NCBI GenBank assembly: GCA_963612735.1
Contig: CAVDWX010000092.1
Location: forward strand, 3,439-67,438
Reading direction: 5' to 3'
Source of the DNA: Gemmiger formicilis
GTDB lineage: Bacteria; Bacillota_I; Bacilli_A; RFN20; CAG-826
DNA: 64,000 bases
Shown here: positions 23,008 to 52,885 of the stretch, piece after piece
Position numbering within the stretch: the first letter of the stretch is position 1
Layout: each line of letters opens with the position of its first letter
Translations under genes and position numbers: made by a program
Notes under the pieces: generated by a model
The model's input: only the letters and a program-made list of their open reading frames with translations
What the model was told of the DNA's origin: nothing
The model's database searches: none

Positions 23008-23034
23008 AGAGGCCATTAAGGTCTCTTTTAATTT
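23008..23034 (+). terminator. rho-independent terminator
   Basis: agaggccattaaggtctc hairpin followed by TTTTAATTT, directly after the last plus-strand fibre-block gene. Confidence 0.6.
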
Positions 23035-23127
23035 GGCAGGGGATCCAGGAGTCGAACCCGGTTCGGAGGTTTGGACGCTCCTACGATGATTTTGAAGATC
23101 ACTGGCCAGAACCGTTAGCCCAATCCC
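23034..23127 (-). tRNA. tRNA with anticodon UCA (reads UGA) and long variable arm
   Basis: Minus strand GGGGATTGG-GCTA-ACGGTTC-TGGC-CA-GTGAT-CTTCAAA-ATCAT-[GTAGGAGCGTCCAAACCTCCGAA]-CCGGG-TTCGACT-CCTGG-ATCCCT-G-CCA. The T-loop is TTCGACT, the discriminator is G, CCA is encoded, the anticodon loop is 7 nt with U33 and A37, and the variable arm is about 23 nt. Confidence 0.6.
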
Positions 23128-23162
23128 CTGTAAGGGATGAGTACCTATCGTCGCAAATTAGT

Positions 23163-34113: not shown

Positions 34114-35655
34114 TTAATTTAATCTAATACTGGTGTATCTAGGCTTATTTAATACCTCAACCATATAATCATATGGTGTATGAACTTTACCTTGAAGTAA
34201 ATCGGCGAATACAGTTGAGGCTTTACCGCATACCATTTGAACGTAAGGCATACTTGCAATTGTATGGAAGGTGTCTTGTCTTGCATCTACATTCCAAAAT
34301 ACAATATTTGGCAATTGATAGCCCATTACTTCAAATTTATTTCTCATCATATTATAGAATGTATCGAACGTACCGTTATAGTCGGTAGTTTCATCGAATT
34401 CCATATCTGTGATAAGGATTAAATTTTTTGGCATCTCTTCTTGAGATAGATGATTTGTTACAGCAGTTTGTAAGATTAAATCGAACACTGCTTCCATATT
34501 TGTATTGGCAACTTTGCATGGAATAACATTTAACTTTTCAGCTAAACTTGCATTTTCCGGCAAAGTAACCCATTTAGCTTCGCGGCTAAAAACCATCATT
34601 TTATTATGATATGCTCCTGTGTTTCTCTCAGCAAAGTAAACTGCTAAGCTTAAAGCTACATTTAATGGTTGGGTTTCCATAGAACCAGATGTATCGGCAA
34701 CAACAATTGTATTGCTATTTGCATTTTGTGGAATGTAGTTATTTAAACTTTTCCACATAGCTTCTACTTCAGGTATCGGTTGTAATTGATGGTTATACCA
34801 TGCATACCAATTTTTCATGTACTTTTGCACTATTTTATAAGGGAATAAGTGTCCAACATTCATTTTTGCTGCTACTTCTTTCCCATTAACAGTAATAGTT
34901 TTACCTTCTTGTACAGCTTCGACATACTCTTGGAAACGAGCCTTATCGTGACGATTGAACGCCTTAATATATTTAGCCATTGCATTGCCCGGAACCTCAT
35001 TATAATTCACATCAGACCATCTGTTGTCTGAAATGATAGGTTCTAATACCTTACCATATTTTCGTAAAGTACTAAGCATTTTACGATATGCAGGCACTGT
35101 TAAGCCGAATGCTTTTGCAGTTTTTAAGCCTAATCGTCTAGATTCATCAGATGATGTATTTGTAGATTTTAACCATTTAGCTAATATACTAATTGGTTGA
35201 TGATTTCTAAAATTTTGACAATCGTGTCGAAAAATAAATTTAAGATAGTCAAACATTTCTTCTTCACAAGGAGTGCCTTCTAAAGCGTAATAATCGTCAG
35301 CACGACCAAAAAAGCCAATATTATCAAAATTCTTAATTAATATTTCTGGATGGCACGATGCTAACCAACGAAGACAAGTGCGGAAAGTTTGTCTTTCTCC
35401 TAAGCCTTCTTTAATATCTCGTGCATAAAAAATTGTCTTTAGAGTTAACTCAGGGTTTTCATCCCAAGCCATTGTAAGATGTTTATAAATGTCTGTATCG
35501 TCACGGTCACGAATTGACCCTATAATAGCGAACAAATCTAAACATTTAGACATTGTAGTGTTTAAAGCAGGTTGACCATTTTCGGTTACCTTTTGTGCAG
35601 ACATATTGTCCATTGCATTAACAAAATTGATACTCATAAATTTTTTCCTTTCCAA
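34114..35655 (-). CDS. Ro60/Rsr-like protein: TROVE-related DUF2828 N-domain + C-terminal von Willebrand A domain
   Basis: N-terminal TENGQPALNTTMSKCLDLFAIIGSIR...ENPELTLKTIFYARDIKEGLGERQTFR matches the DUF2828/TROVE-like pattern (TENGA..TTGS.LLD.F...R....DP.L...LFY.RD.R.G.GER..FR). C-terminal IVVADTSGSM is a MIDAS motif of a vWA domain. Confidence 0.6.
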   Translation of the reverse strand: MERKKFMSINFVNAMDNMSAQKVTENGQPALNTTMSKCLDLFAIIGSIRDRDDTDIYKHLTMAWDENPELTLKTIFYARDIKEGLGERQTFRTCLRWLASCHPEILIKNFDNIGFFGRADDYYALEGTPCEEEMFDYLKFIFRHDCQNFRNHQPISILAKWLKSTNTSSDESRRLGLKTAKAFGLTVPAYRKMLSTLRKYGKVLEPIISDNRWSDVNYNEVPGNAMAKYIKAFNRHDKARFQEYVEAVQEGKTITVNGKEVAAKMNVGHLFPYKIVQKYMKNWYAWYNHQLQPIPEVEAMWKSLNNYIPQNANSNTIVVADTSGSMETQPLNVALSLAVYFAERNTGAYHNKMMVFSREAKWVTLPENASLAEKLNVIPCKVANTNMEAVFDLILQTAVTNHLSQEEMPKNLILITDMEFDETTDYNGTFDTFYNMMRNKFEVMGYQLPNIVFWNVDARQDTFHTIASMPYVQMVCGKASTVFADLLQGKVHTPYDYMVEVLNKPRYTSIRLN

Positions 35656-36589: not shown

Positions 36590-36608
36590 CTCCCCGTTAA
36601 TCAAATAT

Positions 36609-36690
36609 GGTGGATTTTATGGGATTTGAACCCATCTGAAAATTTCCTGCTTGCAAGGCAAGCGACCACCCCTAGCAGTCCCAAAACCCA
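36609..36690 (-). tRNA. tRNA-Ala(UGC)-like with 10-nt variable loop
   Basis: Minus strand GGGTTTT-GG-GACT-GCTAGGGGT-GGTC-G-CTTGC-CTTGCAA-GCAGG-AAATTTTCAG-ATGGG-TTCAAAT-CCCAT-AAAATCC-A-CCA. Has G3-U70 and A73 (Ala identity elements) and anticodon UGC. The anticodon arm is nearly identical to E. coli tRNA-Ala. Confidence 0.5.
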
Positions 36691-38694: not shown

Positions 38695-39098
38695 TCTAGT
38701 ACTTCGCCATCTATTTCTTCCCTAAAAGCACACCAAACATCTTCTTCTAAAAAATCACGAATTGCAGGGATTAAGTTAAAAGTAGGTCTTGTCGCTGTAA
38801 AGCGAATATCTTCTACTTGTACATCTACTAATGGTGCTATACCTCGATTTACTCTGATTTCATTAATATCATTAAGACGACCATTATTTTCCCAAATATT
38901 TACTAAATCTTCTTCAGTAAAGAAAGGAATCGATGCACCTTCTTCTACTGGGCGAAAAGTTTTTTGTAAAAATTCATTAAATTTTTCAATATACTCAGCA
39001 TTAAGCTCCATAACATTAATATACTCTACACGTTCAACAGAACGAATTACTAATTGTCTACTCACAATTAATTTCCTCCTTATTTCTTCCAAGGCCAT
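38652..39098 (-). CDS. hypothetical acidic protein immediately downstream of the sigma factor gene
   Basis: 148-aa ORF ending EEEEEPWQ. Its start overlaps the sigma gene stop. Confidence 0.45.
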   Translation of the reverse strand: MALEEIRRKLIVSRQLVIRSVERVEYINVMELNAEYIEKFNEFLQKTFRPVEEGASIPFFTEEDLVNIWENNGRLNDINEIRVNRGIAPLVDVQVEDIRFTATRPTFNLIPAIRDFLEEDVWCAFREEIDGEVLDWEFGMEEEEEPWQ

Positions 39099-39919
39099 GC
39101 TGCCTTTAATTTTTGTAAACTTGCTTTTTCGATTTGTCTAACTCTTTCACGAGTTAAGTTTAATTCAGCTCCAACTTCATCTAAAGTATGAGTTTTTGTC
39201 CAATTAATTGGGTCACCATTTTCAACCTTACCTAAACCCATACGCATTTTAATTACTATTTGTTCACGTGGTTTTAAAACGGTCTTAATTAAATCTTGAA
39301 TTACTTCTTCTTTTTCCTTACGAACTGCAAAATGTTCAGGTGTTTCGCTTCTTGTGTCTGCTTGTAAGTCACTTAAAGTGTCACCATCATCTCCTAATGG
39401 TGTTTCAAGACTTACAGTGTCATAGCGCCAACCTTCCAAGTCAGCAACCTTTTCTACATCGATGCCCATAACTTCTGCGATACGAGCAGGTGTGGCTTTT
39501 CCACCCTTACTTTCTAATTCAGCAATAGTTGCTCTATACTTGTTCAACATTTGATAAATATGAGCGGGAATACGGATAGTTTTTCCGCAATCAGTGATTG
39601 CTTTAGTAATGGCTTGACGAATCCAAGGAGTCGCACAAGTTGAGAAACGATAACCTAAGTCTGGATTGTATTTTTCAACCGCAGTGATTAAACCTAAATT
39701 TCCTTCAGCGATTAAGTCTAACTTTTCCATATGACTGTTTTGATAATTATTTGCAATTGATACAACCAATCTTAAGTTACTATTGATTAATTGTTCTTTC
39801 GCAGCGTGAGCAACTTCAGGGTCTTCGCTTCTCATTTTGTATGCTAATTCTCTTTCTTCATCTGCACTTAATAATTGATATTCACCAATTTCTTTCATAT
39901 ATTTATTTAATGCTGTCAT
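39080..39919 (-). CDS. phage-encoded sigma-70 family RNA polymerase sigma factor
   Basis: Region 2 (LRLVVSIANNYQN...DLIAEGNLGLITAVEKY), region 3 and region 4 (TLDEVGAELNLTRERVRQIEKASLQKLK). Confidence 0.8.
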   Translation of the reverse strand: MTALNKYMKEIGEYQLLSADEERELAYKMRSEDPEVAHAAKEQLINSNLRLVVSIANNYQNSHMEKLDLIAEGNLGLITAVEKYNPDLGYRFSTCATPWIRQAITKAITDCGKTIRIPAHIYQMLNKYRATIAELESKGGKATPARIAEVMGIDVEKVADLEGWRYDTVSLETPLGDDGDTLSDLQADTRSETPEHFAVRKEKEEVIQDLIKTVLKPREQIVIKMRMGLGKVENGDPINWTKTHTLDEVGAELNLTRERVRQIEKASLQKLKAAWPWKK

Positions 39920-42785: not shown

Positions 42786-43235
42786 CTAGCCATTGGCGCC
42801 GCTGGCTTCCTTCGTCTTCAAACGGCTTATCACCTTTGCGCGCTTTTCTGCCATCAATGCGGCCTTAGCAGCCGCCTCAGCCTCACGAGCCTTTGCCTTT
42901 GCAGCCTTACTTGCTACTTCATCATCGTAAGCATTTGCCGCCTCAAATGGGTCGTAATCAAGTGCCTTGATAGTATTTTTTAGTTCTCAGCTAATTGTAT
43001 AACCGGTAGCTTCATTTTCAATAACGAAAACAATACCTTCCTTCGTCACTAAAATATCTACTTCATCACCATACATCTGCTTGAGGTCATCTACCAAGGC
43101 AGCGACTCCTTCGGCGCGTCATTGATTACGGGCTGTTTGTTGAATGGTTTCGGTGCCATTAGCAGTGATATTGGTTGGTAGGGCACCTAACGAAGCTATT
43201 TGGCGGCAAAAAGACGTAAACTTTAATTCATTCAT
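42786..43235 (-). CDS. hypothetical protein (149 aa, Ala/Lys-rich C-terminus)
   Basis: Hand-translated single frame MNELKFTSFCRQIASLGALPTNITANGTETIQQTARNQWRAEGVAALVDDLKQMYGDEVDILVTKEGIVFVIENEATGYTISWELKNTIKALDYDPFEAANAYDDEVASKAAKAKAREAEAAAKAALMAEKRAKVISRLKTKEASGANG with two TGA=Trp codons. RBS aggagaa. Confidence 0.5.
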
Positions 43236-43315
43236 TAACTTGGTTCTCCTTTCTTATCTTAAAAAAGGAAGGCAGGAATTAAATCCTCCTCCCAATTAGT
43301 GTTTTAGGTTCAATT

Positions 43316-43585
43316 CTATAGATAAAATTTCTTACCGCTATGTTTAGCTCCGCAAGTAGGACAAACATCTTCGTATTCCTCAACATTTACGTTAATTACT
43401 TCGATGTCACCTGCTTCAAGAATACCATCTGCTACCTTTTTAGCTTTAGTACGGATGCTAGTCATTGTACCAGCTGCGATACCAAGTTCCTTTAAAGTTA
43501 AATGTTCTCCTCTGTTAGCTTTTAAAGCTTCGATTGCTGCAAGTTCTTTTTCAGTGTAACTTAAAACTGTTTGTTTGTTTGCCAT
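43316..43585 (-). CDS. small winged-helix-like DNA-binding protein with C-terminal zinc ribbon (paralog family member)
   Basis: LTLKELGIAAGTMTSIRTKAKKVADGILEAGDI resembles the recognition region of the other three paralogs. Ends CPTCGAKHSGK. Confidence 0.45.
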   Translation of the reverse strand: MANKQTVLSYTEKELAAIEALKANRGEHLTLKELGIAAGTMTSIRTKAKKVADGILEAGDIEVINVNVEEYEDVCPTCGAKHSGKKFYL

Positions 43586-44293: not shown

Positions 44294-44785
44294 TTATTCA
44301 GCATCACGTGCGGCTAAGGCATAAGTACCAACCTTTTTCTTAACTGTACAAGGCACTTCAACTTCACCAGCCACGGTTACATTTCCTTTTGTAACTAAGC
44401 CATTGACGTTTCCGCTGATAAGTGGCTTGCCAACTAATTCACTAAGTTGAGCTAGTGTAAGCGGCTCTGCGGCGTCCTTTAATGCAACTAGAATGCTTTT
44501 TTCGGCATCTGTGTAATTGCATACTTTGCCAGTTGCAGGATTAGTTTGAACGGCATCAGTGACTAGTTGATACACTTTATTTGAACGCTTAGAAGCGACT
44601 TCCGCTGCCACTTGTCCGGCGTTGTAAATAAGTCCACGCTTAATTAAACCAGAGATGTGACCGGGAGTGATAGCTACGCCGGCACGTTCGTTTAATTCAG
44701 CAATAGTAAGCGGTCTATCAGATGCGGCCAAAACTTCTAATACGGCCTTTGCAGATTCAGTTAATGGTGTTAAATTTTTACTCAT
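44294..44785 (-). CDS. tandem double winged-helix DNA-binding protein (paralog family member)
   Basis: Two repeats: PLTIAELNERAGVAITPGHISGLIKRGLIYN and PLTLAQLSELVGKPLISGNVNGLVTKGNVTV. Confidence 0.5.
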   Translation of the reverse strand: MSKNLTPLTESAKAVLEVLAASDRPLTIAELNERAGVAITPGHISGLIKRGLIYNAGQVAAEVASKRSNKVYQLVTDAVQTNPATGKVCNYTDAEKSILVALKDAAEPLTLAQLSELVGKPLISGNVNGLVTKGNVTVAGEVEVPCTVKKKVGTYALAARDAE

Positions 44786-44862
44786 AATAATTTTTCTCCT
44801 TCTGGCGACTCTTGGCTCGCCTGACCAAATTTAATTTTTTTCTTATCTTTAATTACAATAAT

Positions 44863-44891
44863 ATTATACTAAATGATTAGCAATTTGTCAA
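44863..44891 (-). promoter_or_regulatory. sigma70 consensus promoter
   Basis: cttgacaaattgctaatcatttagtataatat on the minus strand. Confidence 0.65.
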
Positions 44892-44924
44892 GAAAATCGC
44901 TCCATTAATTGTTAAATTTTTCGG

Positions 44925-45020
44925 ACGGCAAGTAGAATATGAATTAAGGAGGTAACATATGAAGCGCCGTCCGCAGTAAGAAGATTTTCTTTTAAGGTTC
45001 TTTTATCATCTTTCTTACAA
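44925..45020 (-). ncRNA. short promoter-proximal RNA candidate with two stem-loops (contains a 6-codon plus-strand mini-ORF with strong RBS)
   Basis: Downstream of the promoter at 45025..45053 and upstream of the next promoter. Stems gtaagaaag/cttcttac and gcggacggc/gccgtccg. The plus strand has aaggaggtaacatATGAAGCGCCGTCCGCAGTAA. Confidence 0.25.
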
Positions 45021-45024
45021 TAAT

Positions 45025-45053
45025 ATTATACTAAATGATTGACGTTTTGTCAA
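45025..45053 (-). promoter_or_regulatory. sigma70 consensus promoter
   Basis: cttgacaaaacgtcaatcatttagtataatat on the minus strand. Confidence 0.65.
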
Positions 45054-45212
45054 GAAATTTGTTCGGCAAATGAAAAATTTTTGCGCGACGAACTAAAACC
45101 AAAGACGTCATAGGCTCACTTCAATAGCCGCGCAGATAAAATTGCTGCCGGGAAATGCGCAGATTACTGCCAAACGCTCCAAGAAGGTGCCGGCAAACCG
45201 CGCCCAATCATG

Positions 45213-45290
45213 TGAATCCTATGACAACATAAATTTTAAATCAACATAAATTTTAAATCAACATAAATTTTAAATCAACATAAATTTTAA
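45213..45290. repeat. 17-bp tandem direct repeat x4.5 (aacataaattttaaatc)
   Basis: catgtgaatcctatgacAACATAAATTTTAAATCAACATAAATTTTAAATCAACATAAATTTTAAATCAACATAAATTTTAAATCCacg. Confidence 0.85.
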
Positions 45291-45685
45291 ATCCACGTAG
45301 GCCTATAACTTTGTTGCTGCTGCTCAACTTTATGAAAACGTTTTCATTGCCCTATGCTGAATGTAGATAGCATAAGTACTATTAACTAGCCCGAGTACCA
45401 TTGCCAAGCAACCTTTGGAATGTTACTTCTACATCTGCAAAAAGTGAGCAAATGGCTTGACAAGATGTGGAAAATGTGCTATAATATTATTATAGCTGCT
45501 GCTGCTAATAAGTATCACACTGACCTAGGCACCACAAGTTTGCGGCGCCCCGCCCTCTCCGGCGTCCGGGCATATTTTGTAAACGCTTTCATTTTAATGT
45601 AAACGCTTTCATCGTATGCTTTAATTATGAAAACGTTTTCATAACCATCCTTCCGTCTGCCTCTTACATATGTGCAAAAAGAGAC

Positions 45686-45976
45686 TTATTCAGTCTCTTT
45701 CACTAATGTATATGCCTTAACAGTATTAGTCTTTTCGCCGATTTTGACACCTTTAAAATATACATCGCATACTATTTTGGTGTCTTCAGATATTACTAAA
45801 CCACGCTTTACTAAGGCAGTTACCACGCCACTAGCATATCTAATGCCAGTATCTACTTCAATTTCCATTAAAGTAACAGGATAATTATATCCCTCTAAGA
45901 CAGTTAAGAACGCTTTTTGATTGTCATTTGGTTTCCATACTTTTTCATTTTTGTTTACATTTATTGTTTTCATCAT
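45686..45976 (-). CDS. small winged-helix DNA-binding protein (paralog family member; candidate regulator flanked by palindromic sites)
   Basis: NQKAFLTVLEGYNYPVTLMEIEVDTGIRYASGVVTALVKRGLVI closely parallels 48292..48594. Confidence 0.55.
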   Translation of the reverse strand: MMKTINVNKNEKVWKPNDNQKAFLTVLEGYNYPVTLMEIEVDTGIRYASGVVTALVKRGLVISEDTKIVCDVYFKGVKIGEKTNTVKAYTLVKETE

Positions 45977-46016
45977 TTTAAATTACCTTTTACCTTTCTT
46001 TTTTATTTACACTAAT

Positions 46017-46045
46017 ATTATATCATAGTTTGGTGGCAAAGTCAA
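46017..46045 (-). promoter_or_regulatory. sigma70 promoter (TTGACT-17-TATAAT), class B (-10 context tgaTATAATatta)
   Basis: cttgactttgccaccaaactatgatataatatt on the minus strand. Confidence 0.6.
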
Positions 46046-46552
46046 GAAAAATGTTCTAAAATTTTTATTTTCTTTTTTTCATAAAATTCCTTTTCCTATC
46101 ACCTAACTACAATAATATTATACCACAAAAAGCTCAACTTGTCAACCCATAAACTTATGAAAACGTTTTCCTATCTTTAAGACTTGCTATTCTTGCTGCT
46201 GTAAAAAAATGAAAGCGCTTTCATCTTGCTGCTGCTGCTTTTTCATAAAATGAAAACGTTTTCACGCCGTCGCCACGCGGGCGCGGCATATATATCAAAA
46301 ATTTATGGCTTTATGGTTATATGTATATACATATTTATGTATTGGACATCCGATTTTTGCGTCGAAAAAGGCAGACGGAAGTGAAAAAATCTCCTAAAAC
46401 ATATTAAATTTTAGGAGAAAACGTGAAAAAAGTAAGCGAAAACGTGCAGTTTTAAGTAAAAATGTTGCTGCTGCTGCTTCAAAAATGTTAAAAAGGTGGG
46501 AGAAAGGGGAGGGATAGGAGGGGAAAGGCAGACGGAAGTGGCGAGCAAATTG

Positions 46553-46581
46553 GTTGACAAAGGGAAAGAAAGGGTGTATAA
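46553..46581 (+). promoter_or_regulatory. plus-strand sigma70 consensus promoter inside the control region (antisense to early genes)
   Basis: TTGACAaagggaaagaaagggtgTATAAT with GGCAGACGGAAGTGG 13 nt upstream. A second TTGACA follows at 46601. Confidence 0.5.
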
Positions 46582-46639
46582 TGGCAGACGGAAATGGCAC
46601 TTGACAAAACGGAAATTTCCGTCTACGCAGACGGAAAGG

Positions 46640-46668
46640 GTAAAATAAAAAAGGTCCACTAGGGACCT
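46640..46668 (-). terminator. rho-independent terminator
   Basis: Minus strand ggtccctagtggacc followed by TTTTTTATTTTACC. Confidence 0.6.
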
Positions 46669-46858
46669 GAACCTGTCACGTAGGTATCTTACGACCCGTT
46701 CTTAAGGCAAATGTAGTTTTAGCCAATTATCTTTATTAAGGCAAACAATTAAACCCGATTTATTTTGGTGAAATCTTCCCCTATTTTTGAACGATGAATA
46801 GTAACGTTTGTCCTTTTGTTGAGGATTGGACGTAGCCCCAACCTTTAATTATATTAAT

Positions 46859-46887
46859 ATTATATCATATTTATTTAACTTTGTCAA
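46859..46887 (-). promoter_or_regulatory. class B sigma70 promoter with upstream CAGACGGAAG element; no ORF before the terminator at 46640 (about 200-nt noncoding transcript)
   Basis: cttgacaaagttaaataaatatgatataatatt on the minus strand, with aatcagacggaagtaaac 16 nt upstream of the -35. Confidence 0.55.
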
Positions 46888-46914
46888 GAGAAAGATTGTT
46901 TACTTCCGTCTGAT

Positions 46915-47382
46915 TTATTTTTCTATCATACCAAAATATTTTTCTTGAGTCCAACCATTCCAACCGAATGTCAACAAATATTTTCGATAATGTCTATAAT
47001 TACTATATTCATAACTTTCAGTTTGATAAGAAGAGCCATTACGTATTAAACCATTACATTTCCAACCTAATTCTTTTAGAGTATTTTCAATTTGATTTGG
47101 GGAATATTTGTTATCAAGCTCTATGAAGCCATCAAGTTTTTCTTTGGCTTGATTAATTTTTGTTTGAATATATTCTTTTAAATCTTCTTCCATTATTTCT
47201 TTTTCACATTCAGCAAGTAAAATTAAAGCTCTGTTTTTGGCAATTTCCATTCCTATTAATTCATTAAACTTATCTTGTGGACTACATACAGCAATACCCT
47301 TTAATTCGCATTTGCCTACTTTAATAGTAGCAACAACCTTTCTTTCTTCTTTTAAAATTTGATAACTAATTTGTTTTTCCAT
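46915..47382 (-). CDS. hypothetical protein (155 aa)
   Basis: Intact ORF. Confidence 0.45.
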   Translation of the reverse strand: MEKQISYQILKEERKVVATIKVGKCELKGIAVCSPQDKFNELIGMEIAKNRALILLAECEKEIMEEDLKEYIQTKINQAKEKLDGFIELDNKYSPNQIENTLKELGWKCNGLIRNGSSYQTESYEYSNYRHYRKYLLTFGWNGWTQEKYFGMIEK

Positions 47383-47419
47383 TTTTCTAACCTACCTTTT
47401 CTTTTTTATTTACATTAAT

Positions 47420-47448
47420 ATTATATCATATTTTAATATTCTTGTCAA
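47420..47448 (-). promoter_or_regulatory. class B sigma70 promoter with upstream CAGACGGACAAGG element
   Basis: cttgacaagaatattaaaatatgatataatattaa on the minus strand. Confidence 0.6.
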
Positions 47449-47480
47449 GTATTTTAACTACCTTGTCCGTCTGAGACCGC

Positions 47481-48251
47481 TTACCCTTTATAGGTAATAC
47501 GGTCACCACGAACGAATGATTTCTTATAATCAAACTCTACAACATTTCCGTCTGGCAATACTATCACTTGGTGGAACACTTTTTCAGATGCAACTCTTTT
47601 TGCCTTCGGTAATGCTCTAGTTATGTCGGCGTTTCTTCTAATGCATTCTAATAATATTTCCGTCTCCCATTGCACATCACTTAATGCGGTGTGGTCTTCT
47701 TCAAACTCTTTATTATTAAATAAGTATCTTACTACGCTCTCAACTGTGCTACTAATATAAAAGCCCGTTGCGGTGAACTCTTCCGTCTGAGTCGCCCACT
47801 CTTTATATTCCTTTGTATTAATAATAAATTCATATGCATACGCCCAAATATCAAATATTGGTAGTCCTTCTAAAGGGTTTGCAATCCCTAATCCGTCTGC
47901 TGTGCGTTTGAATTTGTCAACATCAAAGTCACAGTTATATGCATAGCCAAATAATACATTATATTTTTTAATATCGTTTGTCATAGTAGTAAATACTTGC
48001 TTGATATTTCTTAATGTTATCATTCCGTCTGCCACCAACTTATCATACTTGGTTAGTTTGTTTGCACCTACAAAATCATCATTAAGCATATAAATACGAT
48101 TATTATATAAATCTCTTACCAAATAATCTCTAGCCACTAGTACTTTTCCGTCTGCATGTTGAATATTTATATCAACGATTTTATAACCCACATTTAATAA
48201 GTCTTGACTAACTTTTCCAACTGTTTCAGTATCAAATATTATTACGTTCAT
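47481..48251 (-). CDS. DnaQ-like DEDDh 3'-5' exonuclease
   Basis: Exo I VIIFDTETVGK and Exo III HTALSDVQ. Contains seven co-oriented GCAGACGG-type motif copies at about 100-130 bp spacing, mostly as Ala-Asp-Gly codons. Confidence 0.7.
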   Translation of the reverse strand: MNVIIFDTETVGKVSQDLLNVGYKIVDINIQHADGKVLVARDYLVRDLYNNRIYMLNDDFVGANKLTKYDKLVADGMITLRNIKQVFTTMTNDIKKYNVLFGYAYNCDFDVDKFKRTADGLGIANPLEGLPIFDIWAYAYEFIINTKEYKEWATQTEEFTATGFYISSTVESVVRYLFNNKEFEEDHTALSDVQWETEILLECIRRNADITRALPKAKRVASEKVFHQVIVLPDGNVVEFDYKKSFVRGDRITYKG

Positions 48252-48291
48252 AGTCTTCTCTCCGTCTGCCCGCTTGGGGTTGGGTGCCGAT

Positions 48292-48594
48292 TTACTCGGC
48301 TACCCTTTCAAGATTTGCTAAACTATATTTTTTTACGTGGTCGGTTTTGTGTCCGATAATTGTATCACGATAAACGATATTACTAATTCGGTCAACTTCC
48401 GTTGCTACAATAAGACCACGACCCATTAAAGCGGTCATTACACCAGTTGCAACTTTTACGCCAGTATCAATTTCGATATCTATTAGCATTGCTCCGTCTG
48501 GGTAATTCTTTAGAATTTCTAAAACTTTTGCTTGATTTTCGTTTGGGGCCCATTCCTTTTTAGTTGTTGTTGTTTTTTTGATTTCTTTTGCCAT
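48292..48594 (-). CDS. small winged-helix DNA-binding protein (paralog family member)
   Basis: NQAKVLEILKNYPDGAMLIDIEIDTGVKVATGVMTALMGRGLIV. Confidence 0.55.
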   Translation of the reverse strand: MAKEIKKTTTTKKEWAPNENQAKVLEILKNYPDGAMLIDIEIDTGVKVATGVMTALMGRGLIVATEVDRISNIVYRDTIIGHKTDHVKKYSLANLERVAE

Positions 48595-48599
48595 AATTT

Positions 48600-49215
48600 T
48601 TTACCTACCTTTACTTAAATTTTTTAATGGCTTGGCTACCATTTACATAAATATTATATCATATTTACGTTTATATGTCAAGGGCTTTTGCTTATCTTTT
48701 CCGTCTGCCAATTTTCTTACTTGGCATACCATTGATTAAGTTTATTACCACTTTACACCTAATATTATACATCTTTTAAAGCCATTTGTCAAGGCTTTTA
48801 CTTCCCTTTTCCGTCTGCCGGTCAAGGTTGGTATAGGTGGTTTTTGTTTCGGGATGACCACCAACCCCATATTTATTTTACACTAATATTATATCACATT
48901 TATTTATTTTTGTCAAGCGTTTTATTTTTGCTTTCCGTCTGCCGCCTTTGTGGCTGCTAAACCTTTCTTTTATATAAATATTATATCATAAATAAATTAA
49001 TATGTCAAGCACTTAACTTATCGGCGTCCGTCTGCCTTTGGGTTTAGGCCATTGTGATGTCTATTTAACTCTTGCACTAATATTATACACCTTTTGCATT
49101 TGAAAGTCAAGCAATAAAACTTGCCATTTCCGTCTGCTTCTCTTCTCTTCCGTCTGCGGTAGACGGATAACAAGGCCAACATTTTTTCTTTCCGTCTACC
49201 CTTTTCGGGCGAAGG
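48600..49215 (-). repeat. tandem array of five roughly 105-bp promoter units, each [GCAGACGGAA element]-N13-16-[TTGACA]-N17-[tgaTATAATatta]
   Basis: -10/-35 pairs at 48652..48680, 48764..48792, 48888..48916, 48980..49008 and 49082..49110, each preceded by ggcagacgga(a/c). No ORF separates the units. Three more motif copies in both orientations at 49128-49200. Confidence 0.7.
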
Positions 49216-49218
49216 GGT

Positions 49219-49491
49219 TTATTCCCCTTCTTCATCGTCTTCTAAGCATTCGTCCCAAAAGTCATCTTCGTCATCGTCGTCATCTTCATACCAAGCGTGG
49301 CTTCCGTCTGCTTCGATGTCTTCTGCTTCGGCAATACTTAGAAAACCTTCATAATCGTCTTCAAAACTTGATAATGCTCTCGTTTCAATTTCTTCAACAC
49401 TCATACTTTCTAGTCTTTCGCCGTCTTCTAATTCAATGACAACACTTCCGTCTAATGTAATTTTTAATGGAACTCTTACTAATTTACTCAT
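49219..49491 (-). CDS. hyper-acidic small protein (candidate DNA mimic)
   Basis: 90 aa, ends YEDDDDDEDDFWDECLEDDEEGE. About 40 percent D/E overall. Confidence 0.45.
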   Translation of the reverse strand: MSKLVRVPLKITLDGSVVIELEDGERLESMSVEEIETRALSSFEDDYEGFLSIAEAEDIEADGSHAWYEDDDDDEDDFWDECLEDDEEGE

Positions 49492-49530
49492 AATTTTTTA
49501 CCTACCTTTTCTTTTTTTATTTACACTAAT

Positions 49531-49560
49531 ATTATATCATACTTACATATCACTTGTCAA
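49531..49560 (-). promoter_or_regulatory. class B sigma70 promoter with upstream GGCAGACGGGAAA element
   Basis: cttgacaagtgatatgtaagtatgatataatatta on the minus strand. Confidence 0.6.
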
Positions 49561-49588
49561 GCCTTACGCTTTGTTTTTTCCCGTCTGC

Positions 49589-49804
49589 CTAGTTTTGCCA
49601 TTCACCTTCTAAATCAAAGTATAAACTGCCCAACCATTCACCATTAAGACTATATATTCTTAATTCTTGACCTATTGAAAATCTTTTTACATCATATTCA
49701 ACATCAAGTCTTTTTAATTGTTCTTGAATTTTTTCTAAATCAGTCATTCTCTTTTTCTCCTTTCCGTCTGCTAAGCAAACCATAATATAAACACGTTTAA
49801 GCAT
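49589..49804 (-). CDS. hypothetical small protein
   Basis: Intact 71-aa ORF. Confidence 0.35.
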   Translation of the reverse strand: MLKRVYIMVCLADGKEKKRMTDLEKIQEQLKRLDVEYDVKRFSIGQELRIYSLNGEWLGSLYFDLEGEWQN

Positions 49805-50025
49805 ATTCCCGCTAAATGCATAGCAATTCCATTTATATGCCTATCAGTTGCAAAGTCTTTAATTAACCCTAAACTTGCAATAACTAAACCAAACACCGCA
49901 CCAACATTAAACCCCACAAACACAATCAAACCTACATTAATTAGTTGTAAAATGGCTCTAATATCGTTCATTTCAAACTTGTATCTTTGTTCTATCTTAA
50001 AAAATCTTTTTACCAACTCTTTCAT
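49771..50025 (-). CDS. small two-TM membrane protein
   Basis: LIVFVGFNVGAVFGLVIASLGLI and LAGICLNVFILWFA hydrophobic segments. Confidence 0.4.
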   Translation of the reverse strand: MKELVKRFFKIEQRYKFEMNDIRAILQLINVGLIVFVGFNVGAVFGLVIASLGLIKDFATDRHINGIAMHLAGICLNVFILWFA

Positions 50026-50069
50026 AATTTAGTCCTTTCCGTCTGCCGGTGGTAGTGATAGGTCAGTGC

Positions 50070-50585
50070 CTACCACTCAAACCATCCGTCTGGGTATATT
50101 TCCCCTATATGTTCTATAAGTGGCTTTACTATTTTTATGCTTTTACCTTTGCCACTTGCTATCCATTCCCTACAATTTTTGCCGTAATCATCTAATAATA
50201 TGCCTCCTTTAGTTTTTGCATAATCGGCTTTATTTTTACCAACTCTCATTATTATGATATGGCTTTTTTTAATTTGTGGATAGTGATATTTTAGCCATTC
50301 CCTTTTATCCCTATCCGCTTGTTTATTGGGGCTTGCGGATAGAATATATAAATTTATATATGGGCTTTTTAATAGACTTTCAAAGCCTTCTTGATTAATT
50401 GGTTTAAGTTTTTTAAAGAAGCCTTTTTCAGTTTTAAAGCGTTCAAGTGCATTAATTTGTCCACCAAAGTCAGCAATAACGCCATCCATATCGCAATATA
50501 CATTTATTTTTAAACCCTTATAAAGGCTTTTTAAGTTTCTTTCTTTAACTAGTTTCTTATATTGTTTAGTCAATTTTTTATTCAT
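50070..50585 (-). CDS. 5'(3')-deoxyribonucleotidase (NT5C-like HAD phosphatase)
   Basis: HAD motif I CDMDGVIADF identical in pattern to the NT5C family DMDGVLADF. Confidence 0.65.
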   Translation of the reverse strand: MNKKLTKQYKKLVKERNLKSLYKGLKINVYCDMDGVIADFGGQINALERFKTEKGFFKKLKPINQEGFESLLKSPYINLYILSASPNKQADRDKREWLKYHYPQIKKSHIIIMRVGKNKADYAKTKGGILLDDYGKNCREWIASGKGKSIKIVKPLIEHIGEIYPDGWFEW

Positions 50586-50662
50586 TTTATCTTTTACCTA
50601 CCTTATTATTTTATTTTATTGTGGGCTTGTTTTAGGTGTAAGCCCTAACCACCTTTAAACTC

Positions 50663-51217
50663 TTAGAAACCTAACAACTCATTTAATTCTTGTATTGGTG
50701 TTCCGTTATTTGTTGGTTTAATGTGTCCGTAATTATCATAAACCAATGTTTTAGGTGTATTTAAGAATATGCCCTTATTGGTTATTAAGATAATTTTTTG
50801 AGTATTTTTTCTTAATTCGCTACCATATGCAAAACCCGTAGTAAACTTTATTTCGTAATTGGTTGTATTTATTAACCCTAAATCACTTAATAAATCACTA
50901 TCTAATTTATAAGTGTTTAAATCATTAAAACCATTTTTTGCCCTAGTGCTTACGCCCTTGATAGTGTCGCCCTTAACATAAGATTTTATTATTATTTTAA
51001 ATAGTATTTCAGCAAGTGAGCCACGATTTACCATAACTAAGCCTTTTGATTTAGTGCATTCTACTTGCACCATTTCAAAGTCGCAATACTCACAATTTAA
51101 TAATTTAAGTAATGTATCATTACTAGTTTTTGCTTTTGCTTGTGCTAGAGTGTTTAATTCTAACATCGCTTTTAATTCTTTTTTGTTTAATGTTAAGATT
51201 TGTTTGTTTGTTGTCAT
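50663..51217 (-). CDS. hypothetical protein (184 aa)
   Basis: Intact ORF. Confidence 0.4.
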   Translation of the reverse strand: MTTNKQILTLNKKELKAMLELNTLAQAKAKTSNDTLLKLLNCEYCDFEMVQVECTKSKGLVMVNRGSLAEILFKIIIKSYVKGDTIKGVSTRAKNGFNDLNTYKLDSDLLSDLGLINTTNYEIKFTTGFAYGSELRKNTQKIILITNKGIFLNTPKTLVYDNYGHIKPTNNGTPIQELNELLGF

Positions 51218-51245
51218 AATTTTATACCTACCTTTATTTATATTT

Positions 51246-51412
51246 TTGTAAGTGTGTTAAGTCCGTCTATCTCAACCACCTTACATACAATATTATACCA
51301 TATCTTAAAACTTTATGCAAATAATATGCATTATTAAATTAAAATATTTTTTAAATATTATATGTAAGTGTTTTTTGTTTCCGTCTATCTCAACCACCTT
51401 ACACATAATATT
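51246..51412. repeat. two 40-bp direct repeats containing CCGTCTA and a TATAAT-like element
   Basis: gtccgtctatctcaaccaccttacatacaatattatacca at 51248 and tttccgtctatctcaaccaccttacacataatattatacca at 51373. Confidence 0.7.
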
Positions 51413-51479
51413 ATACCACAAATAAAATAATAAGTCAATAGAAAAACAAAAAATCTTTTATGAAAACGTTTTCATTTTA

Positions 51480-51650
51480 CATTTTACACATCAAAAACAA
51501 AAATAAAATCAAAATATATAAATAAAGATATGATTTTTAAATTAAATCATATCAAAAATAAAAATATAAAATATATAAAATAAATAATTAAAATAATTTT
51601 AAAATATAAACAAGATAAAAACTAAATCAATTAATTTTAATATATTCTTA
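51480..51650. other. extreme AT-rich tract (over 85 percent A+T) flanked by repeats and a G-rich/C-rich tract; candidate DNA unwinding element
   Basis: A-tracts and AAAAT repeats with no ORF, followed by gggcggtggtgtgttagtggtgttggtgtgtagtgtaaaggtgggcgggggtag and ccccacaccccctctgg. Confidence 0.4.
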
Positions 51651-51834
51651 TCATGGGCGGTGGTGTGTTAGTGGTGTTGGTGTGTAGTGTAAAGGTGGGC
51701 GGGGGTAGAATAAATTTTTTTGAAATTTTTTCTTTTTCCCCACACCCCCTCTGGCCAATCCGGCATACGACAATTTTTAGATATGACAAATTTTTGACTT
51801 CGATGATTTTTTGATTTCTACTTTTTATTCCACC

Positions 51835-52885
51835 CAATCTCTCTCGCTCCCATCGTTTCAATCCATCATTCTTCTCTTTCATTTAACCATTTACTGCGAT
51901 CTCCACCCTTACCATCTCAAACTTCTACTACCTCTCAAGTCACCTCATCCGGCCTACTGACCATCGCATACAATCTCTCGTTACCTTTCGCTTCTACTCC
52001 AATCATTTTCTTAATATGAGTATATCAACGTTCACTTATCTTGACAGCCTGTCCAATATAACAAACCTTTTCATCGTTCACTCAACTTAGTCTATAAATG
52101 CCACTAACAGCACCATCAACACTTAATGCCTTAACCATACGTTGAATTTCAGGCAACCACACCTTCTTCCAAGCAACGGTCATAAGTGCTTCCCTTAACT
52201 CAGGATATAACTCCACGACCTCATCCAACAATCCTAACATCCTCTCTTGACTTCTCGTCAGATGAAAAGTTTCAATGTGACGAACGCCTTCTTCTCCTTC
52301 GCCACCTATCAAACCAAGGGCCTGACGAAAACTTTCTTGCAGATGCGAAAGCTCATTTTCTACGTCCTTCATTTTTTGTCCTAGTTCCTCTAACCTGTGA
52401 TGACTTTGACTCTCTTCATTTTTCATTGCGGTTAAAAGTTCCTTCTTGGCAGCCTCATCAGCTTCAAGTTCCCGCATTCTTTCTTGTAACAACTGGCAAC
52501 GCCCTGATAAACCTTCGTACTGTAATGCCTCTTTTTGCGCTTCTTCCAGTTCTACTTTTACAGTCCTGTAATGTTTAAAAGTATCGGCCAACCTTACTTT
52601 CACTTCATCTATAGTGCGGCATAACTCTTCCTTCTCGGCACTCCGCGAAGCTAGTTGAATCTGCGCCTCTTTCAATTTAGGTTCAAGTTCATCGTGAAGA
52701 CTAGTTTGCAGTATTTCTTGTTTATCTTTTAATTCTTGCAGATGTCTATTATGAATATCAAACAGCTCATCTAATTCTTTAATTTGTTTTAATTTATTGC
52801 GAATTTGACTATTTAAAGCTACTATGAACCCTAATTCTACAAATAGACCTAAAACTATTAGTATTATTCCTATTATCTTTATCAT
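51835..52885 (-). CDS. membrane-anchored coiled-coil protein with Trp-rich C-terminal extension (TGA read-through)
   Basis: N-terminal TM IIGIILIVLGLFVELGFIVAL, then a long heptad-rich region. In code 4 the frame continues past TGA at 52082 for about 80 more codons. Higher GC than its surroundings. Confidence 0.45.

What the first reader, a model, noticed from the sequence alone, without database searches (positions are those of the whole stretch)
45100..46700. 1.6-kb noncoding control hub with 17-bp tandem repeats, six ATGAAAACGTTTTCAT palindromes, (GCT)n runs, inverted-orientation GCAGACGGAA copies and bidirectional consensus promoters
The region has almost no coding capacity (one 96-aa wHTH gene) yet contains 4.5 copies of aacataaattttaaatc, perfect 16-bp palindromes spaced 50-500 bp apart, (GCT)4-5 runs, a 9-bp stem hairpin, and, uniquely here, GCAGACGGAA motifs and consensus promoters on the plus strand that would fire antisense into the early genes. 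This density of repeats and operators is characteristic of a replication origin or genetic switch. The palindrome is an obvious dimeric-repressor operator.
Basis: seen in the sequence. Interest (0 to 1): 0.7.

Follow-up and report, generated by a model that had tools for sequence, protein, structure and literature searches.

The report
Conserved phage early-region control hub
This mostly untranslated 2-kb stretch is a real, evolutionarily conserved control region at the end of the early genes of an uncultured large phage of gut or rumen Firmicutes. It holds face-to-face promoters, a small non-coding RNA, binding sites that look like those of the host sugar-sensing regulator CcpA, and the inverted tail of an unusual one-directional 9-letter DNA motif array. 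There is no direct evidence that it is a replication origin.

Summary
Only 2 of 7 palindromes are perfect 16-mers. The GCT runs are (GCT)3-4. The tandem repeat has 4.1 copies.

The hub really spans 44786-46914 and is conserved in about 10 metagenomic relatives.

- **Palindromes:** they fit the CcpA/LacI-type cre consensus (TGWAANCGNTNWCA; clostridial GAAAANGTTTTC). Across relatives they vary only at the degenerate positions, so a host CcpA-like dimer is a better candidate binder than the phage winged-helix protein.
- **GCAGACGGAA:** the plus-strand copies are the flipped end of a 4.8-kb array (46618-51386). Its 25 copies point the same way as transcription and occur inside genes in all reading frames and 14-18 nt upstream of early -35 boxes. 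A sister contig uses CCGACGGAA instead.
- **Promoters:** the two plus-strand consensus promoters each face an incoming minus-strand unit across a terminator.
- **Non-coding RNA:** a ~205-nt RNA (46851 to ~46645, minus strand) is the best-conserved element.
- **17-bp array:** variable in copy number and absent from the closest relative.

Best reading: a transcriptional boundary and switch region that responds to a host factor and a phage factor. An origin, or a T5-like injection-stop or terminus role, cannot be excluded.

The parts
44863..45053 (-). Two tandem consensus sigma-A promoters (44863-44891 and 45025-45053) that drive the 163-aa double winged-helix gene (44294-44785). They are 162 bp apart within a 71-nt duplicated cassette.
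   Evidence: (D1, D5)
45095..45224 (.). GC-richer untranslated block. Its core GAAGGTGCCGGCAAACCGCGC (45183-45203) differs at only one position across six relatives. Function unknown.
45225..45293 (.). 17-bp perfect tandem array, 4.1 copies. A related array (unit AACGTGAAATTAAAATT, ~2-4 copies) sits at the same place in L135-L138. It is absent from L001. Four independent contigs end inside it, probably as assembly breaks.
45333..45346 (.). cre-like palindrome A, TGAAAACGTTTTCA. Its centre is at about -152 relative to the P(+)45457 start.
45457..45485 (+). Perfect consensus promoter on the + strand with an extended -10 (TGc). The promoter segment 45446-45494 is 100% identical in L001 and 85-87% in L135-L137, with both hexamers intact in all six.
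45492..45700 (+). Predicted non-coding + strand transcript. It starts with (GCU)4, contains the conserved TAAGTATCACACYGACCTAGG and a GC-rich hairpin, crosses cre B-D, and runs head-on into the terminator of the winged-helix gene. Fold z = -3.4.
   Evidence: inferred transcript
45578..45641 (.). cre-like palindromes B (45578-45591), C (45598-45611) and D (45628-45641). Centres are at +92, +112 and +142 of P(+)45457, just downstream (minus sense) of the winged-helix gene terminator.
45651..45660 (-). Isolated GCAGACGGAA copy. Its core TCCGTCTGC is invariant in six relatives.
45676..45698 (.). Hairpin AGAGACT/AGTCTCT that overlaps the stop codon of the 96-aa gene. It is followed by a T-run on the minus strand, so it reads as a terminator for that gene. 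It is only a weak terminator on the + strand.
45686..45976 (-). 96-aa winged-helix protein with a long beta-hairpin wing. No Pfam or PHROG family. It is one of four paralogous domains or genes in the window (43316-43585, 44294-44785 with two domains, 48292-48594).
46017..46145 (-). Two promoters for the 96-aa gene: 46017-46045 (TTGACT-17-TATAAT with TG) and 46117-46145 (perfect consensus).
46158..46264 (.). cre-like palindromes E (46158-46171; centre -54.5 of P(-)46145, with the same 12-nt gap to the -35 in L135), F (46210-46223) and G (46251-46264). They are spaced 52 and 41 bp apart and interleaved with (GCT)n.
46266..46345 (.). GC hairpin (46266-46287) followed by an AT-rich stretch. The stretch carries the palindromic TATATGTATATACATAT and the conserved TATTGGACAT.
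46390..46418 (-). Intrinsic-terminator-like hairpin (11 pairs plus TTTTTT) on the minus strand.
46467..46478 (+). (GCT)4 tract. Other tracts lie at 45316-45324, 45495-45506 and 46228-46239. In distant relatives (GCT)3 sits 2-13 nt upstream of the -35 of the reverse-facing promoters.
46528..46637 (+). Reverse-facing promoter module. Order: GCAGACGGAA (46528), 16 nt, TTGACA-N17-TATAAT (46554-46582), GCAGACGGAA across the start site (46584-46593), a second TTGACA (46600), then an inverted motif pair forming a 9-bp hairpin (46616-46637). The module is conserved in all motif-bearing clades examined.
46642..46851 (-). ~205-nt non-coding RNA with its own consensus promoter (46859-46887) and terminator (46652-46668 plus T-run). 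It is 82-83% identical between clades, against 74% for the winged-helix coding sequence and 31-62% for the other untranslated spacer segments. Three hairpins are 100% paired, with 3 compensatory pairs. No Rfam family matches.
46618..51386 (-). Array of 25 AGACGGA cores (consensus GCAGACGGAA) oriented with early transcription. 11 lie inside genes in different reading frames and 14 are intergenic. Eight sit 16-18 nt upstream of a -35 box.

Best explanation
The stretch 44786-46914 is the conserved, almost entirely untranslated control region at the distal end of the phage's immediate-early transcription block. I read it as a transcriptional boundary and switch, not primarily as an origin.

SHOWN BY SEQUENCE AND COMPARISON
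- Minus-strand early units end here at intrinsic terminators (46652-46668, 46390-46418, 45676-45698).
- New minus-strand units start here from consensus promoters.
- Two consensus promoters point the other way (45457, 46554). Each fires head-on into an incoming unit, so each would make antisense RNA. One of these antisense RNAs would be fully complementary to a conserved ~205-nt non-coding RNA.
- Seven palindromes of the CcpA/LacI (cre) type flank the only gene, a small winged-helix protein.
- The region closes a 4.8-kb array of GCAGACGGAA motifs that all point with transcription. The motif flips orientation together with the reverse-facing promoter and lies across that promoter's start site.

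INFERRED
- A host CcpA-like dimer, loaded according to the host's carbon state, binds the palindromes.
- At -54.5 of P(-)46145 it would help transcription of the winged-helix gene.
- At +92 to +142 of P(+)45457 it would act as a roadblock to the antisense transcript.
- A phage-encoded sequence-specific protein binds the asymmetric GCAGACGGAA sites. Candidates are the small winged-helix paralogues encoded inside and next to the array.
- At about -55 of the early promoters and inside early genes this protein would modulate or later shut off early transcription, in a stoperator-like way.
- At +1 of P(+)46554 it would repress the antisense promoter.

The 17-bp array and the (GCT)n tracts are additional protein-binding or slippage-prone elements of unknown partner.
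For: REALITY AND CONSERVATION
- Every element class is far above shuffle expectation.
- The same layout occurs in L001 and L135-L138.
- In distant contigs L123/L133, L124, L130 and L134 the core is a palindrome (centre about -65), a (GCT)3 tract and a reverse-facing TTGACA promoter. Motif copies then lie at or just after the -10, followed by an inverted pair and a bidirectional terminator.
- L144 has the same core without the palindrome.
- The palindrome-plus-GCT pattern is found nowhere else in IMG/VR. In JGI metagenomes it gives 5 true hits (two on contigs already found) and 2 chance hits.

UNTRANSLATED
No ORFs appear under table 11 or with TGA or TAG as sense. Single-base indels lie in the conserved RNA region.

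NON-CODING RNA
Promoter and terminator are conserved. Identity is 82-83% between clades, against 74% for the neighbouring coding sequence. Three helices are 100% paired with compensatory changes. The 5' hairpin is kept in L142 (nhmmer match), where the sequence shows a G.U to U-A change.

cre READING
- Six hub sites match TGWAANCGNTNWCA exactly and one has a single mismatch.
- The 7-9 sites per relative vary only at the consensus W and N positions.
- The consensus strings come from the CcpA literature (PMC10269683, PMC9598941, PMC8091064).
- The dominant form contains the C. difficile CcpA core GAAAANGTTTTC (PMC3510511).
- Relatives are binned with Clostridia, Eubacteriales or Bacilli MAGs.
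- No LacI-family gene is found in the window.
- The palindrome is constant while the winged-helix paralogues diverge to 28-37% identity.

MOTIF AS A TRANSCRIPTION-LINKED PROTEIN SITE
- Co-orientation with transcription holds on both strands in several of the motif-bearing contigs examined.
- The offset to the -35 is fixed at 14-18 nt in five phages despite unrelated spacer sequence.
- The motif lies 1-4 nt after the -10 of the reverse promoter in four of them.
- Inverted pairs bracket the -10 in L130 and L134.
- A sister contig uses the variant CCGACGGAA, which argues for a co-evolving partner.
- Motif positions inside the orthologous exonuclease genes are only partly shared between clades, which argues for continuing selection on density.
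Against: - No binding, transcript or timing data exist. Every functional step is inferred.
- The host is unknown, so the presence of CcpA/HPr is assumed.
- A phage-encoded dimer could also recognise the palindromes, and two operator clusters flanking a small DNA-binding gene look like an autoregulatory switch.
- AGACGGA stays the same in clades whose winged-helix proteins differ a lot, so assigning those proteins to the motif is weak.
- Consensus promoters need no activator, so the role of a site at -55 is unclear.
- The direct-repeat arrays, AT-rich stretch and promoter-driven non-coding transcripts would also fit a transcription-primed origin. In distant relatives the arrays are CTACTAA units with 11/22-bp phasing.
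- The 205-nt RNA folds no better than shuffled sequence overall (z = +0.68).
Confidence: 0.45

Rival explanations
1. Replication origin. Iteron-like direct repeats plus an AT-rich unwinding element are activated or primed by the non-coding transcripts from the hub promoters, as in transcription-dependent phage origins. This could hold in addition to the regulatory role.
For: - 17-bp array at 45225-45293, with related arrays in L135-L138.
- CTACTAA arrays with 11/22-bp spacing in L124, L130, L134 and L144 next to the same promoter module.
- AT-rich palindromic stretch at 46290-46345, partly conserved.
- Strong promoters that make non-coding RNA.
- Winged-helix DNA-binding genes close by.
Against: - The 17-bp array is completely absent from the closest relative, L001, and its copy number varies.
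- A 17-bp spacing is not helically phased.
- DNaA boxes are at chance level.
- There is no skew inflection at the hub; skew follows gene orientation.
- Helicase, ligase and topoisomerase genes lie at 2-14 kb of the window, 30 kb or more away.
- The most AT-rich repeat region of the early block is elsewhere, at 51480-51650.
Confidence: 0.2
2. Phage-autonomous genetic switch. The 96-aa winged-helix protein (or the 163-aa double-domain one) is a dimeric repressor. It binds the two palindrome clusters that flank its own gene. It thereby autoregulates and chooses between the convergent promoters, like an OL/OR or phage-186-type switch.
For: - Two clusters of three palindromes about 580 bp apart bracket the gene.
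- One site sits just upstream of the gene's promoter.
- Promoter pairs are face to face.
- The gene and the palindromes co-occur in window, L001 and L135-L138.
Against: - The palindrome has the central-CG LacI/CcpA signature and fits published cre consensuses exactly.
- The same palindrome core persists in L123, L124, L130, L134 and L142, where the neighbouring winged-helix proteins have a different putative recognition helix (ASGVVT versus TGSINT) and only 28-37% identity.
- One more copy lies 5 kb away at 51461, in another untranslated block.
- No lysogeny functions were seen near the hub, although a full search was not done.
Confidence: 0.15
3. Physical-end or entry function. The hub marks a genome terminus, a terminal-repeat boundary or a T5-like injection-stop region. 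The oriented GCAGACGGAA array would then be a Chi-like or translocation-polar signal that protects or guides the first-entering DNA. The cre-like boxes would play the part that DnaA boxes play in the T5 injection-stop region.
For: - The hub is a large untranslated region full of repeats, inverted repeats and palindromes. It carries multiple sites for a host DNA-binding protein and sits at the inner end of an early block, like the T5 iss region.
- The early block encodes an NT5C-type deoxynucleotidase. T5 has a pre-early dmp gene (from my own knowledge).
- Motif polarity flips exactly at an inverted pair (46617-46636). This is the arrangement expected if both DNA ends were protected by properly oriented Chi-like sites.
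- The motif is purine-rich with a CGG core and varies between sister clades, as Chi varies between hosts.
Against: - The fixed 14-18-nt offset from the -35 boxes, and the placement at +1 of the reverse promoter, point to transcription and not to DNA ends.
- There is no evidence on termini. Contig ends inside the 17-bp array are best explained as k-mer assembly breaks, and long contigs span the hub.
- DnaA boxes are absent.
- The motif is not enriched elsewhere in the window.
Confidence: 0.1

Closest known systems
CcpA catabolite-responsive elements (cre) of Firmicutes, and LacI/GalR-family operators in general
   Same: - A 14-bp palindrome with a central CG.
- Six hub sites match TGWAANCGNTNWCA exactly and one has a single mismatch. 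The dominant form carries the clostridial GAAAANGTTTTC core.
- Variation among relatives is confined to the consensus's degenerate positions.
- One site is centred at -54.5 of a promoter and three lie downstream of another. These are the two classical positions, activation and roadblock; their assignment here rests on my own knowledge of ackA/pta and xyl.
   Different: - They are clustered 7-9 per 1.2 kb in a phage untranslated region, not singly at catabolic operons.
- The host and the binding are unproven.
- I found no described case of a lytic-phage early region carrying a cre cluster.
Mycobacteriophage L5 / Cluster A stoperators (asymmetric repressor sites that stop elongation)
   Same: The GCAGACGGAA sites are asymmetric and present in many copies. 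They are strikingly co-oriented with transcription and found at promoters and between genes (for the definition).
   Different: - The motif is 9-10 nt and is packed every 75-150 bp into one 3-5-kb early block, not spread over the genome.
- About half the copies lie inside coding sequence.
- The phage looks virulent and belongs to the Firmicutes type.
- No homologue of the L5-type repressor was identified, and the binder is unknown.
Phage T5 injection-stop (iss) untranslated region in the left terminal repeat
   Same: A large untranslated region at the end of the first-expressed gene block. It is dense in repeats, inverted repeats and palindromes and carries a conserved set of boxes for a host DNA-binding protein.
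   Different: - The boxes here are cre-like, not DnaA boxes.
- No terminal repeat or two-step entry is known for this phage.
- The two phages are not related in sequence.
Convergent-promoter switches (coliphage 186/P2 pR-pL, pCF10 prgQ/prgX) and cis-antisense RNA pairs
   Same: Strong face-to-face promoters about 300 bp apart (46554 + versus 46887 -). Their transcripts would overlap completely over a conserved small RNA.
   Different: - No lysogeny or conjugation context.
- There are two such pairs.
- There is no evidence yet that either transcript exists.
Transcription-primed phage origins (T4 oriF/oriG, T7 primary origin, lactococcal phage c2 ori)
   Same: A promoter, a non-coding transcript and an AT-rich element lie together in an intergenic region. 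The comparison rests on my own knowledge of these systems.
   Different: No mapped initiation, no adjacent replication genes, and the candidate iteron array is dispensable in the closest relative.

Membership tests
CcpA cre site | Match to the published 14-16-nt consensus (TGWAANCGNTNWCA / WTGNAANCGNWNNCW; clostridial RRGAAAANGTTTTCWW) | tested here: met
   Six exact matches and one 1-mismatch match in the hub, plus one exact match at 51461. Counting each palindrome on both strands gives 18 matches at <=1 mismatch against 5.5 expected. Consensus strings were verified in the literature.
CcpA cre site | Evolutionary variation restricted to the degenerate positions; invariant TG..A..CG..T..CA | tested here: met
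   The 7-9 sites per genome in L135-L138 read TGAAAACGTTTTCA, TGAAAGCGTTTTCA, TGTAAGCGTTTTCA, TGTAAACGCTTTCA or TGTAAGCGCTTTCA.
CcpA cre site | Host is a Firmicute with CcpA and HPr kinase | tested here: inconclusive
   Promoters are of the sigma-A type and the TerL relatives are Firmicutes phages. Relatives are binned with Clostridia, Eubacteriales or Bacilli MAGs. The host itself is not identified.
CcpA cre site | Bound by CcpA-HPr(Ser-P), with a glucose-dependent effect | not testable with these tools
   Needs EMSA or ChIP and a ccpA mutant host.
Replication origin | Iterons conserved among relatives | tested here: inconclusive
   The 17-bp array is present in the window and L135-L138 but absent from L001. 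Different CTACTAA arrays occur in distant clades.
Replication origin | DnaA boxes or other host initiator sites | tested here: not met
   TTATCCACA at <=1 mismatch: 18 found against 21 expected, with one in the hub.
Replication origin | Adjacency to initiator or replisome genes, or a compositional skew switch | tested here: not met
   Helicase, ligase and topoisomerase genes lie at 2-14 kb. Cumulative GC skew shows no inflection at 45-47 kb.
Replication origin | Replication initiates there | not testable with these tools
   Needs marker-frequency analysis or 2D gels.
Stoperator-type silencing sites | Asymmetric multi-copy site co-oriented with transcription | tested here: met
   In the window's dense run 24 copies point forward and 1 is inverted. 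L123 has 50 forward and 1 inverted, and L144 has 56 forward in 4 kb. Inverted copies occur only behind reverse-facing promoters.
Stoperator-type silencing sites | Sites spread across the genome in short intergenic spaces | tested here: not met
   The motif is confined to 46.6-51.4 kb, and 11 of 25 copies lie inside genes.
Stoperator-type silencing sites | Bound by a phage repressor that blocks elongation | not testable with these tools
   There are candidate winged-helix paralogues only.
T5-type injection-stop region | Large untranslated repeat- and palindrome-rich region at the end of the first-expressed genes | tested here: met
   definition
T5-type injection-stop region | Conserved set of DnaA boxes | tested here: not met
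T5-type injection-stop region | Lies in a long terminal repeat; two-step DNA transfer | not testable with these tools
   The termini are unknown. Contig ends in the tandem array look like assembly breaks.
Rfam RNA families (for the 205-nt RNA) | Covariance-model match | tested here: not met
   Nothing reaches gathering score. The best hit is 6A RNA, E = 0.06, on the opposite strand.

The most novel reading that the evidence does not exclude
A clade of uncultured ~105-135-kb Firmicutes phages writes a strand-specific 9-mer every 75-150 bp through its whole immediate-early block. The motif is GCAGACGGAA, or CCGACGGAA in a sister lineage. It runs through coding sequence in all reading frames and flips orientation exactly at this hub. 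On this reading the array plus hub is a previously undescribed cis-acting system. It could be an early-block-wide shut-off or insulation device read by a phage protein. Alternatively it could be a polar DNA-end or entry signal, coupled to host carbon status through a cluster of CcpA boxes.
Probability: 0.3. Interest if true: 0.8.

Novelty: new variant of a known kind. Interest (0 to 1): 0.6.

Why it matters
If the palindromes are genuine CcpA sites, this would be a clear case of a phage wiring the start of its programme to the host's catabolite state. That bears on how gut and rumen phages time infection to nutrient pulses.

The oriented motif array is a compact, testable example of selection on DNA or RNA sequence overriding codon choice across a whole gene block.

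The conserved ~205-nt RNA and its antisense partner are new phage non-coding RNA candidates.

Tried and rejected
- **Near and distant DNA search against 50,697 phage records.** No relatives, only a 45-nt promoter match to Lactococcus 949-group phages.
- **Rfam, at gathering score and at permissive E-value.** No family for any hub RNA.
- **Literature search for the motif strings.** Nothing found.
- **Strict ~115-bp periodicity of the motif.** Suggested by the exonuclease gene, but rejected: median spacing is 123, 124, 92 and 64 bp in four phages.
- **Motif array as a general feature of phages with the same exonuclease.** Rejected. Enterococcus phage EF1 and MAG contigs L143 and L145 have none.
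- **Hidden coding capacity through stop-codon reassignment.** Prompted by a tRNA(tca), but rejected for the hub.
- **Phage-encoded LacI-type regulator.** None found by tblastn, using a CcpA sequence recalled from memory.
- **Targets of the conserved loop CUACGUCCAAU within the window.** At chance level.
- **The 205-nt RNA in distant clades.** Only its 5' hairpin is found, in L142.
- **Contig ends as evidence of genome termini.** Four contigs end in the 17-bp array, but the simplest reading is a k-mer assembly break.
- **Structure search for the 96-aa protein.** Only generic winged-helix matches (AbfR2, ScpB, MarR/PadR; E about 0.05), so no functional assignment.
Full report
CONTEXT

The window is part of a low-GC (34%) phage genome.
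- It has 25 perfect TTGACA-N17-TATAAT promoters against 0.3 expected.
- Its large terminase is 28-33% identical to those of large Firmicutes siphophages such as Geobacillus E3, Bacillus Sophrita/PBC2 and the SPbeta YonF type.
- There is no close DNA relative among 50,697 deposited phages.
- Genes from about 52.9 kb down to about 23 kb lie on the minus strand. Structural genes start at 53.1 kb on the plus strand.

The finding therefore lies inside the leftward early and middle region. On one side is an early block that contains a DEDD-type exonuclease-like gene (47481-48251), an NT5C deoxynucleotidase (50070-50585) and many small ORFs. On the other side is a run of small winged-helix genes followed by a phage sigma factor at 39080-39919.

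CHECK OF THE OBSERVATION

The elements exist and are not chance.
- Tandem repeat: 4.1 perfect copies of a 17-mer at 45225-45293.
- ATGAAAACGTTTTCAT: 8 matches at <=3 mismatches against 1.6 expected, 7 of them inside 45332-46265. Only two are perfect 16-mers.
- (GCT)3-4 tracts: four loci, all on the + strand and all in the hub.
- GCAGACGGAA: 27 copies at <=1 mismatch against 1.4 expected. All + strand copies but one (a 1-mismatch copy at 59418) lie at 46371-46636.
- The only two + strand consensus promoters of the window are 45457-45485 and 46554-46582.
- The 9-pair hairpin is 46616-46637.
- The 96-aa ORF models confidently as a winged helix with a long beta-hairpin wing (pLDDT 85).
- Reading TGA or TAG as sense creates no credible ORF.
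- The untranslated block is wider than reported, 44786-46914.

RELATIVES

I recovered three tiers of related contigs.
- Closest: L001, an IMG/VR contig about 90% identical.
- Intermediate: L135-L138, from contigs of 39-101 kb. Their exonuclease is 94% identical and the orthologous winged-helix protein 68%.
- Distant: L123/L133, L124, L130, L134, L144 and L142.

Some long contigs are binned with Clostridia, Eubacteriales or Bacilli MAGs. This is only weak evidence about the host.

WHAT IS CONSERVED

A six-way alignment (A2) and segment identities rank the elements, window against the L135 clade.
- The region 46641-46852 is 82-83% identical.
- Promoter cores are 85-87% identical.
- The winged-helix coding sequence is 74% identical.
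- The other untranslated spacer segments are 31-62% identical.

The best-conserved segment has a perfect minus-strand promoter (46859-46887) and an intrinsic terminator (46652-46668 plus T-run). It also carries single-base indels, which rule out coding. Three hairpins are paired in all sequences, with three compensatory pairs. The 5' hairpin recurs in L142, where the sequence shows a further compensatory change. I call it a ~205-nt non-coding RNA. It matches no Rfam family, and its overall fold energy is unremarkable.

The 17-bp array is present at the same place in L135-L138, with a related unit and varying copy number. It is wholly absent from L001.

THE PALINDROMES

- Six hub sites match the CcpA cre consensus TGWAANCGNTNWCA exactly and a seventh has one mismatch. 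One more exact copy lies at 51461, in another untranslated block.
- In L135-L138 there are 7-9 sites in matching positions. Their differences fall only on the W and N positions of the consensus.
- The consensus strings are as published. The commonest form contains the C. difficile CcpA core GAAAANGTTTTC.
- Site E is centred 54.5 nt upstream of the start of P(-)46145, with the same 12-nt gap to the -35 in L135.
- Sites B-D lie 92-142 nt downstream of the start of P(+)45457.
- Sites E, F and G are 52 and 41 bp apart.
- The palindrome core also persists in L123, L124, L130, L134 and L142. There it is centred about 65 nt upstream of a reverse-facing promoter or abuts its -35.
- In those contigs the neighbouring winged-helix proteins share only 28-37% identity with the window's and differ in the putative recognition helix.
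- No LacI-type gene is present in the window.

Together this favours a conserved host LacI/CcpA-family dimer over the phage winged-helix protein as the binder. It is not proof.

THE GCAGACGGAA COPIES

- The core AGACGGA occurs 25 times on the minus strand between 46618 and 51386. Eleven copies are inside genes in different reading frames, six of them in the exonuclease gene. Fourteen are intergenic.
- Relatives have 24-56 co-oriented copies in a dense 3-4.7-kb run: 24 copies in the window and 31, 50, 41 and 56 in L001, L123, L124 and L144. Median spacings in the first four are 123, 124, 92 and 64 bp, so there is no strict period.
- A subset sits at a fixed 14-18 nt upstream of a -35 box in five phages, although the intervening sequences are unrelated.
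- At the end of the block the motif flips together with a reverse-facing promoter and lies 1-4 nt after its -10. In the window this is TATAAT-G-GCAGACGGAA at 46577-46593. An inverted pair follows.
- Contig L142, whose exonuclease is 56% identical, has the same layout built from CCGACGGAA.
- More distant phages with the same exonuclease have no array.
- Motif positions inside orthologous exonuclease genes are only partly shared between clades.
- The literature search found nothing for these strings.

The closest described analogue is the mycobacteriophage stoperator: asymmetric, multi-copy and co-oriented with transcription. Density, confinement to one block and intragenic placement all differ.

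HOW I THINK IT WORKS

Steps shown by sequence and comparison:
- The hub is where leftward early units terminate and new ones start.
- Two strong promoters fire back into the incoming units.
- One of them would make an RNA fully antisense to the conserved 205-nt RNA.

Steps inferred:
- A host CcpA-type regulator reads the palindromes and sets the balance between the winged-helix gene and the antisense transcript from P(+)45457.
- A phage protein reads GCAGACGGAA, modulating or shutting off the early block and repressing P(+)46554.
- The (GCT)n tracts lie just upstream of the reverse promoters' -35 in distant clades and vary in length. They are probably another protein site.
- The 17-bp array has no assigned role.

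RIVALS

- Origin. It remains possible because direct-repeat arrays, an AT-rich element and promoter-driven non-coding RNAs sit together. The arrays are 17-mers here and phased CTACTAA units in distant clades. Against it: DnaA boxes are at chance, skew shows nothing, replication genes are far away, and the array is dispensable in L001.
- Phage-autonomous repressor switch. Plausible on topology but disfavoured by the cre-type signature and the cross-clade constancy of the palindrome.
- T5-like injection-stop or terminus function. The overall resemblance to the T5 iss region suggests it, as does the polarity flip of a Chi-like motif. There are no data on termini, and contigs ending in the tandem array are most simply assembly breaks.

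VERDICT

The 'control hub' label is right. 'Origin' is unsupported, and 'operator of the phage winged-helix protein' is probably the wrong partner. The region is a new variant of a known kind of element, a phage early-region regulatory and boundary region. It is attached to a motif array for which I found no described counterpart.

Noticed in passing
window 46618-51386 (minus strand); L123 7575-12261; L124 8419-11437; L144 1044-5038; L142 99-1761: Early-block-wide array of a strand-specific 9-mer (GCAGACGGAA; CCGACGGAA in L142) every 75-150 bp. It lies inside genes in all reading frames and 14-18 nt upstream of early -35 boxes. No counterpart was found in the literature search.
   Followed up: partly
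window 51218-52081: A second ~860-bp untranslated block at the upstream end of the motif array. It holds two promoters with AGACGGA downstream, a perfect cre-like palindrome (51461-51474), about 170 bp of ~90% A+T with tandem repeats (51480-51650), a G-rich tract and then a pyrimidine-rich stretch without ORFs. It is at least as origin-like as the hub.
   Followed up: no
window 23034-23129 and ~42990-43240 (minus strand): ARAGORN calls a tRNA with anticodon tca (opal-reading), which Rfam does not confirm. An ORF downstream of the 89-aa gene is interrupted by an in-frame TGA, whereas a 151-aa gene is intact at that place in L135 and L137. This could be a pseudogene or suppressor-dependent read-through. 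TGA is otherwise used as a stop in 7 of 41 long ORFs.
   Followed up: partly
window 34114-35655 and 36608-36689: A 513-aa protein with DUF2828, DUF7788 and a weak VWA domain (the PHROG label is 'RNA-binding protein'), a Ro-like architecture. It lies near a weakly scoring tRNA-Ala-like gene, so this may be a Ro/Y-RNA-type pair.
   Followed up: no
window 44922-44971 (+ strand): A six-codon mini-ORF (ATG AAG CGC CGT CCG CAG TAA, peptide MKRRPQ) with a perfect AAGGAGG Shine-Dalgarno. It is embedded in a CGGACGGC/GCCGTCCG hairpin between the two tandem promoters of the 163-aa gene. It is identical in L001 but not conserved in L135-L138.
   Followed up: no
L139, L141, L149 (111-kb contig), L153; window equivalent 45225-45293: Four independent assemblies end inside the 17-bp tandem array. 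This is most simply a k-mer assembly break, but it would also be seen if a physical end lay there.
   Followed up: partly
window 50070-50585: An NT5C-family 5'-deoxynucleotidase sits in the immediate-early block. It is conserved in relatives (L135 902-1429). A 156-aa ORF at L123 8612-9082 looks like a HAD-type homologue from its sequence alone and was not scanned. It is reminiscent of the pre-early dmp gene of T5 (from memory).
   Followed up: no
window 48600-49200: Five to six strong promoters in tandem at about 100-120-bp intervals. Each is preceded by the motif, and no convincing ORFs lie between them. This is either a promoter stack or a series of very short transcripts.
   Followed up: no
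window, genome-wide: GCAGATG and its complement CATCTGC occur 17 times each (about 2 expected), scattered on both strands. This is another over-represented word of unknown meaning.
   Followed up: no
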